Shown here in pieces: positions 3,001 through 6,000 of a DNA stretch of 20,805 nucleotides. Position numbers: made by a program. Positions within the stretch are counted from its first letter, which is position 1, and each line of letters opens with the position of its first letter. This stretch comes from a virus (taxonomy: Duplodnaviria > Heunggongvirae > Uroviricota > Caudoviricetes), in IMG/VR virus record IMGVR_UViG_2778261509_000017. The stretch is one strand, 5' to 3'.

Positions 3001-6000
3001 CATCAGGTTGTTTGCGCATTGATGTGGAGATACGCTTCCAGTCTTCGCGATCTCTGGCGATAACTTCATTTTTTGCCCAGCGATGGATGCTGCCGTCAAT
3101 GCTTCCGGCATCCACATCACCAGGCCAGAGAGCGTAGGCCAGTTCTTCATCCAGCGTTTTCCATGTCTGCTTATATTCGCGACGAATGGCAGCAGTGGCA
3201 GGGTTGATTTTTTCTGCTGAGTTTTCAGTGTGCTGTCGGTTGACTCTGACGCGGGCAAGGTCAACAACAGAAGTATACGCACCACCTTCTTTGCGCGCCT
3301 TTTCCAGGCGTTTTTTACGGTCGAGAAAATATGCCTGAACGTCGGGCCATTTGGCGGTTGGTTTTAAATCACGTCTGGCATCGTTGATGTATTCAATCTG
3401 ACGTTCCGGATACATGGCGTTAATTTCTTTAGTCCGGATAATTGCCTCTGCGAGGTGTCCGTCAAAGGTCATCATGTCATCATCGCCAAGAAGCCCGCTT
3501 GCGTTGATGACCATATCCACGGTGATGTTTTCATGTGTGCCAAACTTAACGAGGACAGCAGCCTGCTTGTCGTCAGATAACTGATTAAAGTTAACAATTT
3601 CTGTATTCGGCTCAGGTTCGACCGGGACAAAGGAAGCGGATTCCTCATCCCAGCGGTTTTCCAGCATATATTCGGTATCCCAGGAGTCGATGGCAGGGCG
3701 GGGCATGCCGGGTTTATCCTCGCAGACAAGAAATTTATAAGCGCAGTCCTGAGCAGCCGGATATTGCTCCAGGAATTGCCAGGTAAATTTGGCACGGGCG
3801 CGGCGTTCGTCACCAGCTTCGATGGCAGTGGCTACAGCAACTGCACCTTCTTCCTTTATTGCCTGTTCGTCCGGAATGGCGGCGCAAATAAAGACTTTAC
3901 TCATTTTGTTTTAACCTCATTACAGATTTAAGGGTGAACAAATCCCTGCCATTGCTGGCATATAAAAATGAAACCGGATATTAATTACGGTGCTGTTTTA
4001 AGTCCTGCCGGGATTTCGTTATTGTCCATGTGAATAACTTTATCAACCGGATAACAGTTGCCGGGAATTTTCTGTTCCGCTGCGGCAGCCGTGCATTCTT
4101 TCATTGAACCGTAAATGTCAATAACCAGATCAACAGGCTCGCCAGTATTAAGAAAAACTGTCAGAACGAGTGCAAATGCTGTATTCATTGCCAGCATCCT
4201 TTTTGCATCGGGCGTAAACGTGCCAGCATTGAAAGAATGCATATTTTATTTAATAGCTCCCGTTCGTGTTTTCTCTTATTAATGGCATCTTCAGTAAATG
4301 CAGGGTTACTGATTCTGACACCAATTTCAAAACAACCTTCAGACGTATTAACGTTTGGTAATAACGTTTCCATTATCGCGTCCTCAACAATGAATTTTGT
4401 GATGCGGTGCCTGGTGCCTCCAGGTGACGTTAACCAGTTAACAATTAACGCCGGATACAGAGAAACCACCCATAAGAACCAATACGGAAGTCAACAGGCC
4501 TTTTTAACTGTTCCGCGTGCGCTGAGCCGCATTCACCGCATCACAAAATTCACCTTAAAAAGGGCGGGTATCACGGGGAAAACAAAACAGATACCCGCCA
4601 AAAGGTAATCAACATGGGTTGTTGCAGCGGGGTTGTCACTCAGGCGTATGGTCAACCTGACAACCCGGTGTTATCTCGAGGAAAGGATAGCCTCGCCATA
4701 CTTACCGCCGCGCCATTTCGCGGATTGCCACAACCGGAAGCGCACGGTCGAAGAAATCTAACGACAAGCCTTCTAAGGAAAAGACATCTCCGCCGTGCGC
4801 TTTCGCGTTATGCCCTGACTTTTCAGGGATATATCCTTTCAGTAAACTGTCAGTGCCGGATTCTTATCCGTGTCCGGCGCACGACAACACGCTGTCACGT
4901 GTGGTCTCCATTCTCAACCAGTAACCTCAATGGAGGATAAAATGCCAAACAAGCCAATACATCCGCTTATTGAAAAACAGATTGAATGCCTGGTTAATCA
5001 ACTCAGGCAATCAGGGTTATTAAAAACACATTCAGAGCTAGGGCTCACAGAATCGGCATTCGACGATAAATTAAATAATGCGCTTTATAATGGCATCATT
5101 GATTACAATCGTGGTGCTGGTCGCCGTGGCCCTGCTGGTACAGCTTTGTAATTACCAGTTAATCCATAGCGGATAGTGTTCAGCATAAATATAGCTATAC
5201 ACATCCAGGTTGTATTTGCGGTCTGTCCTTAGCAGGTCGCAAATACACGCCGCAGCTTCCAGGGCGGAAGCTTTGTTGCTGAATAACCATGTAGCAACAT
5301 TCCAGCGATTATCTTTATCCCACTCTTTTGCGAGAGCTGACACCACGAAGGAGCCGTTGGTGTTGCCATCAAATACTTCCGTTTCCAGATTTTTAAGTAA
5401 TGCCTGGTGAATTTTTGCCAGGTATTCAGTCGGAATTTCGCCACGAATTCGGATAAGGTTGTCATAAACAAACATGTTTCCCGCATATGGCGATTTTTCT
5501 TCCTTGTTTTTTAAACCAGCATCATGAGCAAACTGATCAATTTCTTCTTCCGTTGGTTTCGTGTTGATGTTTTGCGCTGTCGTTTCTGCAATGAGTTTTG
5601 CTTTATTTTCTACACAATGATTGTTTGTGAACGAATATGAATACAGTCCGGTAAAGGAATTGCGGACATGATTTGATAAATTTCTGATGAACAGTTTATC
5701 TACTAATATCATTGGGTTCCGCGCCAGTTGCGAGCGAATCACATCAGCGGCCATTTCCTGTATTGAAATTGGTAAATCTTTAAATTCCATAGTCAACCTC
5801 ATCAGTCGGTGGTTTTAAATCACTCGCGAAACGTTTAATGCCGCGCTTTTTGCCAGAGCGGTAATATCCTGCGTCACTGACGCCAGTGTTTCAGAGAGGC
5901 GCTCTTTGTGATCAGTGGCCTGCTTCAGGTCATTAATGGCGCGTATCTTCCCGCGCATCCACTCATAAAGTTCATCATCGGTATAGTCTGGCGCGATGAT

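What the first reader, a model, noticed from the sequence alone, without database searches (positions are those of the whole stretch)
4942..5790. Convergent pair of unknown genes (69 aa and 212 aa) in the early-left region
A plus-strand 69-aa gene with a strong Shine-Dalgarno ends exactly where a minus-strand 212-aa gene ends (5151/5152). Accessory genes in this part of lambdoid phages often encode exclusion, anti-defence or host-takeover functions. Neither product has motifs I recognise.
Basis: seen in the sequence. Interest (0 to 1): 0.5.

Follow-up and report, generated by a model that had tools for sequence, protein, structure and literature searches.

The report
Conserved tail-to-tail prophage gene pair
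Two real but uncharacterised prophage genes that face each other always travel together as a small mobile cassette inside the early (dicB) operon of E. coli lambdoid prophages, which suggests they work as partners, but what they do is still unknown.

Summary
A 69-aa gene (4942-5151, +, GGAGG Shine-Dalgarno) and a 212-aa gene (5152-5790, -) have directly abutting stop codons. Both are real: each matches a full-length PHROG of unknown function, and dN/dS against O157 Sakai Sp11 (ECs_2212/ECs_2211) is 0.25 and 0.30.

The pair is an insertion after ydfC in a Qin-type ydfC-dicF-dicB early-left operon; K-12 Qin lacks it. About 600 of 5426 complete E. coli genomes carry it (744 versus 751 places). 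All 74 viral contigs with the small gene also carry the large gene, convergent.

Distant homologues (36-38% and 52% identity) sit tail-to-tail after cox in Salmonella P2-like immunity regions. That argues for a functionally coupled module.

The large protein joins a promiscuous ~55-aa N-domain to a conserved C-domain. The small protein is a helical hairpin with a conserved GRRGPAG tail, and its SD is predicted base-paired.

No Pfam, NCBIfam, PADLOC, PDB or fold match was informative, and no literature or expression data were found.

Best inference: an antagonistic partner pair, the large protein made on derepression and the small one from an opposing transcript. Function is unproven. Moderately interesting.

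The parts
4942..5151 (+). 69-aa gene ('small'). Predicted helical hairpin (H8-24, H37-61) plus a disordered, conserved C-terminal tail ...GRRGPAGxxL. Equivalent to ECs_2212 and WP_033813301.1.
   Evidence: ORF and SD seen. phrog_4274 matches at E 5e-42. 35 protein clusters, all Escherichia or Salmonella. dN/dS 0.25 in frame. AF2 pLDDT 74.5. Salmonella homologue at 52% identity, E 1e-24.
5152..5790 (-). 212-aa gene ('large'), second gene of the early-left operon. Equivalent to ECs_2211, called 'Ybl81' in some records.
   Evidence: phrog_2151 matches 212/212 positions, E 3e-100. 132 clusters. dN/dS 0.30. Same strand as ydfC, dicB, exonuclease, xis and int.
5623..5790 (-). N-domain of the large protein (residues 1-56, MEFKDLPxxIQEIAAxxL...NVRDAFTGLY). 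It is a promiscuous module found on proteins of 47-228 aa with unrelated C-termini.
   Evidence: Profile search of 1.84 billion representatives. Shared with PHROGs 1363, 6937 and 9419. Found in 491 IMG/VR contigs. Present in Stx2a phages. dN/dS 0.40.
5155..5499 (-). C-domain of the large protein (residues 98-212). Motifs SPYAGNMFVYDNLIRIRGEIP and FDGNTNG. Predicted beta-beta-alpha-beta-beta-alpha-beta.
   Evidence: dN/dS 0.16. Distant homologues P0186, P0212 and P0172 at 36-38% identity carry different N-termini. AF2 block pLDDT 53-80.
4855..4941 (+). Putative 5' leader of the small gene. HP1 is 4855-4878 and HP2 is 4883-4906. Anti-SD 4905-4912 pairs with the SD region 4929-4936.
   Evidence: MFE folds. 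HP1 and the anti-SD/SD helix are kept in 10 of 10 leader variants, with one compensatory pair. HP2 is present in every class with unrelated stem sequences. Function on this strand is inferred, because HP1 and HP2 also exist in K-12, which lacks the cassette.
4820..4848 (+). Candidate promoter of the small gene: TTTTCA-17-TAAACT (8 of 12 matches), ending 6 nt before HP1.
   Evidence: TAnACT is invariant in the 6-sequence alignment A5. It falls below the scan threshold. Inference only; no transcript data.
5815..6021 (-). ydfC homologue, the first gene of the early-left operon. The cassette is inserted directly downstream of it.
   Evidence: 63% identity to K-12 YdfC, E 1e-31. phrog_1744. RefSeq CDS WP_001171935.1.
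6206..6234 (-). Candidate early-left (dicB-operon-type) promoter TTTACA-17-CATCAT, lying between the DicA/CI-like repressor gene (6324-6743, -) and ydfC.
   Evidence: Promoter scan, 9 of 12 matches. The position corresponds to the K-12 dicA - ydfA arrangement. Not tested.
4374..4854 (-). ydfC-dicF-dicB spacer of the operon, downstream of the cassette on the early transcript. It includes a diverged dicF-position hairpin plus U5 at 4557-4599.
   Evidence: Collinear alignment with K-12 Qin and Sakai Sp11. Hairpin found and folded, z -5.5. 77% identity over 203 nt next to the Salmonella module.

Best explanation
The two genes form one mobile accessory cassette inserted after ydfC in a Qin-type early-left (ydfC-dicF-dicB) operon, and their products are functionally coupled partners.

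The 212-aa protein is made only when the DicA/CI-like repressor is lifted, because its gene lies in the early-left transcript. The 69-aa protein is made from an opposing transcript that starts in the ydfC-dicF spacer, and its Shine-Dalgarno sequence is held in a hairpin. There is no terminator between the abutting stops, so the two transcripts must overlap. The expression of one therefore interferes with the other, by transcriptional collision and by antisense pairing.

I infer that the small protein is the resident, prophage-state factor. I also infer that the conserved C-domain of the large early protein binds it, probably through the conserved GRRGPAG tail, and switches it off or is modulated by it at induction. 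This follows the logic of P22 SieB/Esc, an exclusion factor with a self-escape factor.

Shown here: both genes are real, they are linked, the tail-to-tail geometry is kept in two phage backbones, the pair is an insertion, and the domain architecture is as described. Inferred: the promoter, lysogen expression, antisense interference, direct binding, and which partner is the effector.
For: Linkage:
- All 74 IMG/VR loci with the small gene have the convergent C-domain gene, and 71 have identical abutting stops.
- In complete E. coli genomes the small gene occurs at 744 places in 597 genomes and the C-domain at 751 places in 600 genomes.

Deep conservation of the pair:
- In Salmonella and other Enterobacteria, C-domain homologues at 36-38% identity carry an unrelated N-terminus. 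They sit after cox in a P2-like immunity region.
- Each is followed by a convergent small homologue (52% identity, E 1e-24, same SGLLK and RRGPAG motifs) whose 3' end overlaps the large gene's by 53 or 11 nt.

Other support:
- Both genes are under purifying selection.
- C-domain alleles and small-gene alleles are perfectly associated in 35 distinct loci, whereas N-domain alleles are shuffled relative to the C-domain.
- The small gene is never seen without the large one. The large gene survives intact without the small one in L158, L159 and L165, where the small gene has an internal deletion.
- The pair is an insertion relative to K-12 Qin and phage 606R7, and its GC content is 35-47% against flanks of 50-54%.
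- The SD is base-paired in all leader variants.
- No terminator-like site lies between the genes.
- Antisense-oriented genes inside lytic operons are a recognised signature of prophage accessory loci, and P22 sieB/esc/sas is a precedent (PMC7067206, PMC12197685).
Against: - No expression data were found for either gene, and the promoter is only an 8/12 consensus match below the scan threshold.
- HP1, HP2 and the TAAACT element also exist in K-12 Qin, which has no small gene. They may therefore serve the dicF precursor on the other strand rather than the small mRNA.
- Adjacency could persist by block transfer without functional coupling, since the neighbouring spacer is 77% identical in Salmonella.
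- In the alternative cassettes D and E the same large-protein C-terminal region occurs with or without a convergent gene, so pairing is not a general rule at this site.
- The 212-aa model is poor (pLDDT 58) and the fold searches were uninformative.
Confidence: 0.4

Rival explanations
1. Toxin-antitoxin-like polarity, the reverse of the best explanation. The large early protein is a host-directed toxin or takeover effector. The small protein, made in the lysogen and probably labile because of its disordered tail, is the antidote that neutralises leaky early-left expression.
For: The small protein has a structured N-terminal part and a conserved disordered C-terminal tail, as many antitoxins do (alignments). 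The large gene is under repressor control. The linkage is tight.
Against: The genes are convergent rather than an operon. There is no hit to any toxin or antitoxin family in Pfam, NCBIfam or PADLOC. The invariant residues of the C-domain are mostly hydrophobic and no catalytic motif was recognised. An intact large gene persists where the small gene is deleted (L158, L159, L165), while an orphan small gene is never seen, which is the opposite of the usual toxin-antitoxin asymmetry. A sequestered SD is odd for an antidote that must be in excess.
Confidence: 0.2
2. Two independent accessory genes that are merely neighbours. One is an antisense moron (the small gene). The other is an unrelated early gene. 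They hitch-hike together because cassette exchange uses the flanking N-domain and spacer homologies.
For: The same site carries other antisense small genes with the same leader types and with other N-domain proteins. Cassette E has the large-protein type of cassette D but no small gene. The spacer next to the Salmonella module is 77% identical, so block exchange does occur.
Against: The adjacency and tail-to-tail geometry persist at 36-38% and 52% protein identity with saturated synonymous sites, and across different phage backbones and different N-termini. Recombination does separate the N-domain from the C-domain but not the C-domain from the small gene.
Confidence: 0.22
3. A regulatory pair acting on the lysis-lysogeny or early-operon programme. 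The large protein would be an early regulator whose C-domain is a partner- or ligand-binding module. The small protein would be its anti-regulator, or the opposing transcript itself would damp leaky dicF/dicB expression.
For: One Salmonella-type homologue (P0172) has an HTH_3 DNA-binding domain inserted between its N-terminus and the C-domain. In those phages the gene sits directly after cox, the position of 186 cII (position; the 186 comparison is from my own knowledge). Transcription opposing the early-left operon would lower read-through into the toxic dicB.
Confidence: 0.13
4. Annotation artefact. The 212-aa ORF would be a pseudogene remnant, as RefSeq flags it, and/or the real product at the junction would be the small hydrophobic ORF 5078-5176 (a type I toxin-like peptide).
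For: RefSeq marks 5152-5667 as 'incomplete, missing N-terminus'. A 32-aa hydrophobic ORF overlaps the 3' end of the small gene.
Against: The 212-codon ORF is intact, has the full PHROG length and is under purifying selection in all three regions. Genuinely frameshifted copies exist and look different (P0116, P0118, P0120). The hydrophobic ORF lies in a frame with dN/dS above 1, and its stop is not conserved in Sakai.
Confidence: 0.03

Closest known systems
P22/lambda sieB-esc-sas superinfection-exclusion module
   Same: A gene embedded in the early-left region. I infer an analogous layout here: a prophage-expressed factor whose activity is counteracted by a phage early function, with antisense RNA interplay between the opposing transcripts (PMC12197685, PMC7067206). 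That sieB lies on the strand opposite the pL transcript is from my own recollection, not from the papers read.
   Different: There is no sequence similarity to SieB. Here the two partners are separate genes, not two products of one gene. The 69-aa protein is soluble and hydrophilic. Neither exclusion nor escape has been shown.
Prophage morons / accessory loci encoded antisense to lytic operons
   Same: The pair is an insertion relative to related prophages, has lower GC than its flanks, and its small gene opposes the lytic operon (concept in PMC7067206).
   Different: No convincing own promoter and terminator pair was found. The cassette has two genes, one of which belongs to the lytic operon itself.
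Type II toxin-antitoxin systems
   Same: Two small, tightly linked genes on a mobile element. The smaller product has a disordered conserved tail.
   Different: The arrangement is convergent rather than an operon. There is no family hit. The pattern of orphan genes is the opposite of what toxin-antitoxin systems usually show.
Polymorphic toxin / immunity cassettes (CdiA-CT/CdiI, Rhs)
   Same: A conserved N-terminal module is fused to alternative C-terminal regions, and several of these are accompanied by their own small neighbouring gene.
   Different: The N-module is only about 55 aa and cytoplasmic, with no secretion or delivery domain. The partner gene is convergent. Some variants have no partner. 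No toxin domain is recognisable.
Qin prophage dicB operon (ydfABC-dicF-dicB) of E. coli K-12
   Same: The host operon is the same. YdfC is 63% identical, the spacer, dicF position and dicB are collinear, and there is a DicA/DicC-like immunity region.
   Different: K-12 lacks the cassette. This prophage lacks ydfA and ydfB, and its dicF-position element is diverged.

Membership tests
Type II toxin-antitoxin | Two genes co-transcribed as one operon | tested here: not met
   The genes are on opposite strands with abutting stops.
Type II toxin-antitoxin | Homology to a known toxin or antitoxin family | tested here: not met
   No Pfam, NCBIfam or PADLOC hit for either protein.
Type II toxin-antitoxin | Toxicity of one product that is neutralised by binding of the other | not testable with these tools
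   This needs expression and binding assays.
Type I toxin-antitoxin (convergent 3'-overlap type) | Small hydrophobic membrane toxin peptide | tested here: not met
   The 69-aa protein is hydrophilic. The hydrophobic ORF 5078-5176 is an off-frame artefact, with dN/dS above 1 in that frame and a stop that is not conserved.
Type I toxin-antitoxin (convergent 3'-overlap type) | Translation of the mRNA held off by a structured leader that sequesters the SD | tested here: inconclusive
   The SD is base-paired in all predicted leader folds, and the anti-SD/SD helix is kept in 10 of 10 variants. There is no experimental 5' end.
SieB/Esc-type exclusion module | Sequence homology to SieB | tested here: not met
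   No Pfam or PHROG hit other than PHROGs of unknown function.
SieB/Esc-type exclusion module | A gene opposing the early-left operon that is expressed from the prophage and excludes superinfecting phage | not testable with these tools
   The orientation is met. Expression and exclusion need experiments.
Moron (autonomous accessory insertion) | Present in some related phages and absent from others at the same site | tested here: met
   Absent from K-12 Qin and phage 606R7, and replaced by other cassettes in PPompW and Evi.
Moron (autonomous accessory insertion) | Own promoter and terminator | tested here: inconclusive
   The only candidate promoter is an 8/12 match. The terminator-like hairpin at 5254-5272 lies inside the large gene, and its stem is disrupted in the L158-L165 copies of this stretch.
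Moron (autonomous accessory insertion) | Base composition different from the flanks | tested here: met
   GC is 0.35-0.475 across 4900-5800 and 0.50-0.54 in the adjacent 4400-4900 and 5800-6200 stretches.
Polymorphic toxin / immunity | Constant N-terminal region with alternative C-terminal domains | tested here: met
   The N-domain occurs on proteins of 47-228 aa with unrelated C-termini.
Polymorphic toxin / immunity | Cognate immunity gene immediately downstream in the same orientation, for every variant | tested here: not met
   The partners are convergent, and variants E and F have none.
Known anti-phage defence systems (PADLOC-DB) | Match to a defence-system protein model | tested here: not met
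   No family matched at E up to 1 for either protein or for YdfC.
Qin-type dicB operon (genomic context) | ydfC, the dicF-position element and dicB collinear downstream of a DicA-like repressor | tested here: met
   YdfC is 63% identical. The spacer aligns along its whole length with K-12. dicB is annotated. The dicF-position element is diverged.

The most novel reading that the evidence does not exclude
The pair is the founding example of a new class of phage-phage competition module. The prophage would make a small soluble protein that blocks lytic development of incoming or resident lambdoid phages. A cognate early protein would neutralise it through its C-domain. Alternative cassettes at this hotspot (A-D, sharing the N-domain and the leader types) would then represent diversifying specificity types.
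Probability: 0.15. Interest if true: 0.7.

Novelty: new variant of a known kind. Interest (0 to 1): 0.45.

Why it matters
About one in nine complete E. coli genomes carries this pair, including the O157:H7 Sakai reference strain (prophage Sp11), and nothing is known about it. It sits inside the operon that makes DicF and DicB, which control cell division and affect phage sensitivity.

If the two proteins are an antagonistic pair switched by prophage state, the locus would be a compact and experimentally tractable model. It would show how temperate phages combine convergent transcription with protein-protein antagonism. The polymorphic hotspot would also be a source of new exclusion or counter-exclusion specificities.

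If the genes turn out to be independent, this is simply another accessory hotspot of lambdoid prophages.

Tried and rejected
1. Family searches gave nothing. Pfam, NCBIfam and PADLOC had no hit, and PHROGs matched only unknown-function families.

2. PDB sequence searches with single sequences and with profiles found nothing below E 0.28.

3. Structure prediction and fold searches were uninformative.
- The 212-aa model is poor (pLDDT 58).
- Foldseek against PDB and BFVD gave TM no higher than 0.34 for the domain.
- I considered an SUI1/eIF1-like reading of the C-domain and rejected it as unsupported.
- afdb50 was unavailable.

4. I considered the hydrophobic 32-aa ORF at 5078-5176 as a type I toxin and rejected it. 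It is off-frame, not under selection, and its stop is not conserved.

5. I rejected the RefSeq pseudogene call for the large gene.

6. Rfam gave no family for the leader or spacer, only a sub-threshold STnc100 match nearer dicB.

7. I first read the 260-nt conserved block upstream of the small gene as a dedicated expression platform. Alignment with K-12 showed that it is the ydfC-dicF spacer of the operon, so that claim was downgraded.

8. The N-domain is not related to YdfA or YdfB.

9. The literature gave nothing on ybl81, ECs2211 or ECs2212. The Pas/STnc100 sRNA paper concerns the late region. No TSS table was usable.

10. The metagenome and GTDB scans added only close relatives. The family is confined to Enterobacterales.
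Full report
**What is there**

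The window is a lambdoid prophage integrated next to ompW. It is 100% identical to E. coli RM10740 over the 1.5 kb around the pair (window 4600-6100). The features on the - strand are, in order:
- int, xis and a RecE-type exonuclease
- a DUF1482/ydfD-like gene (3985-4188)
- dicB (4185-4373)
- a 568-bp non-coding stretch
- the 69-aa gene, which is on the + strand (4942-5151)
- the 212-aa gene (5152-5790)
- a ydfC homologue (5815-6021; 63% identical to K-12 YdfC)
- a DicA/CI-like repressor (6324-6743), facing a cro/dicC-like gene

The small gene has GGAGG 5 nt before its ATG. The two stop codons are adjacent (TAA|TTA).

**Are they genes?**

Yes. Each matches a PHROG of exactly its own length: phrog_4274 (69 positions) and phrog_2151 (212 positions). 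Both PHROGs are of unknown function.

The large family has 132 clusters and the small family 35. All are from Escherichia or Salmonella.

Against the O157 Sakai Sp11 copy (ECs_2212 and ECs_2211), dN/dS values are as follows:

| Region | dN/dS |
|---|---|
| Small gene, own frame | 0.25 |
| Small gene, other two frames | 1.18 and 1.61 |
| Large gene, overall | 0.30 |
| Large gene, N-domain | 0.40 |
| Large gene, linker | 0.52 |
| Large gene, C-domain | 0.16 |

The RefSeq flag that calls 5152-5667 a pseudogene is not borne out. Genuinely frameshifted copies exist (P0116, P0118, P0120) and look different. The hydrophobic 32-aa ORF at 5078-5176 is an off-frame by-product.

**Context: an insertion in a Qin-type dicB operon**

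The stretch 4374-4941 aligns end to end with the K-12 Qin ydfC-dicF-dicB spacer. K-12 and phage 606R7 go straight from ydfC into that spacer. This prophage carries the two genes in between.

The cassette is lower in GC (0.35-0.475) than its flanks (0.50-0.54).

Other prophages carry different cassettes at the same place. For example, PPompW and Evi have a 135-aa protein with the same N-terminal 51 residues (51% identity) plus an unrelated convergent 77-aa gene. A survey of 88 loci found at least six types, A to F. Four have a convergent small gene and two have none. All of their products are of unknown function.

**The large protein is a mosaic**

A profile search of 1.84 billion representatives showed that residues 1-56 occur on proteins of 47-228 aa with unrelated C-termini. 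These include proteins of Stx2a phages.

Residues ~98-212 form a separate conserved domain. It also occurs, at 36-38% identity, behind a different N-terminus in 217-220-aa Salmonella proteins. In the 286-aa P0172 it sits behind an inserted HTH_3 domain.

The invariant positions are mostly hydrophobic, plus Y109, Y123, D141, N145 and E178. I recognise no catalytic motif.

**The pair is a module**

This is the key result.
- In IMG/VR, all 74 loci with the small gene have the C-domain gene in convergent orientation, and 71 have identical abutting stops.
- Of 80 loci with the large gene, 74 have the small gene, two are cut by a contig end (L145, L160) and one holds only a partial C-domain match (L163). 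Three (L158, L159, L165) carry an internal deletion of the small gene next to an intact large ORF.
- In 5426 complete E. coli genomes the small gene is at 744 places in 597 genomes. The C-domain is at 751 places in 600 genomes.

The distant homologues of the large protein lie in a different backbone: int, C-type HTH repressor, cox, then the large gene. Every one is followed by a convergent 64-69-aa gene. That gene is 52% identical to the window protein (E 1e-24) and keeps the SGLLK motif and the RRG(x)PAG..L tail. Its 3' end overlaps the large gene's by 53 or 11 nt.

Synonymous sites between the two versions are saturated.

Within E. coli, C-domain alleles and small-gene alleles are perfectly associated, whereas N-domain alleles are shuffled. 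Physical closeness could explain part of that pattern.

**Expression signals**

A terminator-like site is not predicted between the genes, so opposing transcripts must overlap.

Upstream of the small gene three hairpins are predicted:
- HP1 at 4855-4878
- HP2 at 4883-4906
- an anti-SD/SD helix (4905-4912 with 4929-4936)

HP1 and the SD helix are kept in all ten leader variants, with one compensatory pair. HP2 exists in each class with unrelated stem sequences.

A TAnACT hexamer 6 nt before HP1 is invariant in the six-sequence alignment. With TTTTCA 17 nt upstream it makes only an 8/12 promoter match.

One caution applies. HP1, HP2 and this hexamer are also present in K-12, which has no small gene. 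They may belong to the dicF precursor on the other strand. A candidate early-left promoter lies at 6234-6206.

**Function**

Nothing informative came from Pfam, NCBIfam, PADLOC, PDB sequence or profile searches, AlphaFold models or fold searches. No paper mentions these genes.

My best inference (confidence 0.4) is a coupled antagonistic pair. The large protein comes from the repressor-controlled early transcript. The small protein comes from an opposing transcript under translational restraint. Convergent transcription would make their expression mutually antagonistic, and the C-domain would contact the small protein's conserved tail.

The asymmetry of orphans and the sequestered SD favour the small protein as the resident effector and the large one as its early neutraliser. 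This resembles P22 SieB/Esc in logic, not in sequence (PMC12197685, PMC7067206).

Rivals are reversed toxin-antitoxin polarity (0.2), independent neighbours (0.22) and a regulatory pair (0.13).

**Novelty and verdict**

The genes are already in databases as hypothetical proteins. The module, its conservation in two backbones and the polymorphic hotspot appear undescribed in the literature I could search.

It is a new variant of the known kind 'prophage accessory cassette'. It has real but unproven potential to be a new exclusion/escape or toxin-antitoxin-like pair. Interest 0.45.

Noticed in passing
window 4557-4599 (-): At the position of dicF there is a 10-bp GC-rich hairpin followed by U5 (fold z -5.5). 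Relative to K-12 and Sakai dicF it has a 9-nt deletion and a different loop or seed, and the Rfam DicF model does not hit it. It may be a DicF variant with altered targets.
   Followed up: partly
window 4396-4550 (-): A sub-threshold match to STnc100 (RF02076; 33.6 bits against a gathering score of 47, E 1e-5) lies just upstream of dicB. The matching 3' part of this stretch (about window 4396-4460) is nearly identical in the K-12 dicF-dicB spacer.
   Followed up: partly
window 5152-5667 (as annotated in NZ_CP043821.1 and NZ_CP122823.1): RefSeq/PGAP flags the large gene as an incomplete pseudogene 'missing N-terminus', although the 212-codon ORF is intact. The probable cause is the divergent N-domain allele of this strain.
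   Followed up: yes
L003 2818-3436; L007 2501-3119; L184, L203, L193, L208 (IMG/VR loci): The site between ydfC and the dicF spacer is a hotspot. At least six alternative cassettes all begin with the same ~55-aa N-domain. Four of them have their own convergent small gene (phrog_10348, phrog_8894 and others) behind one of two leader types.
   Followed up: partly
L158 3562-4197 (-), also L159 and L165: Where the small gene is internally deleted, a 211-aa gene (phrog_1244, unknown function, with Cys-rich CxxC motifs) is inserted in the same antisense orientation just upstream.
   Followed up: no
window 12948-13119 (+): A strong sok antitoxin RNA match (107.5 bits), indicating a hok/sok type I toxin-antitoxin locus in the prophage.
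   Followed up: no
window 18418-18490 and 18595-18668 (+): Two tRNA genes in the late region of the prophage.
   Followed up: no
window ~10925-11503 (+) and the overlapping - strand gene from ~11463: RefSeq annotates a 'sce7726 family protein' and a convergent 'beta family protein' here in the identical prophage. This could be another accessory or defence-type pair.
   Followed up: no
L009 5821-6367; L011 5856-6139: The Salmonella P2-like/lambdoid hybrid prophages that carry the distant module also carry a 77%-identical copy of part of the E. coli ydfC-dicF spacer next to it. That is more conserved than the adjacent coding genes.
   Followed up: partly
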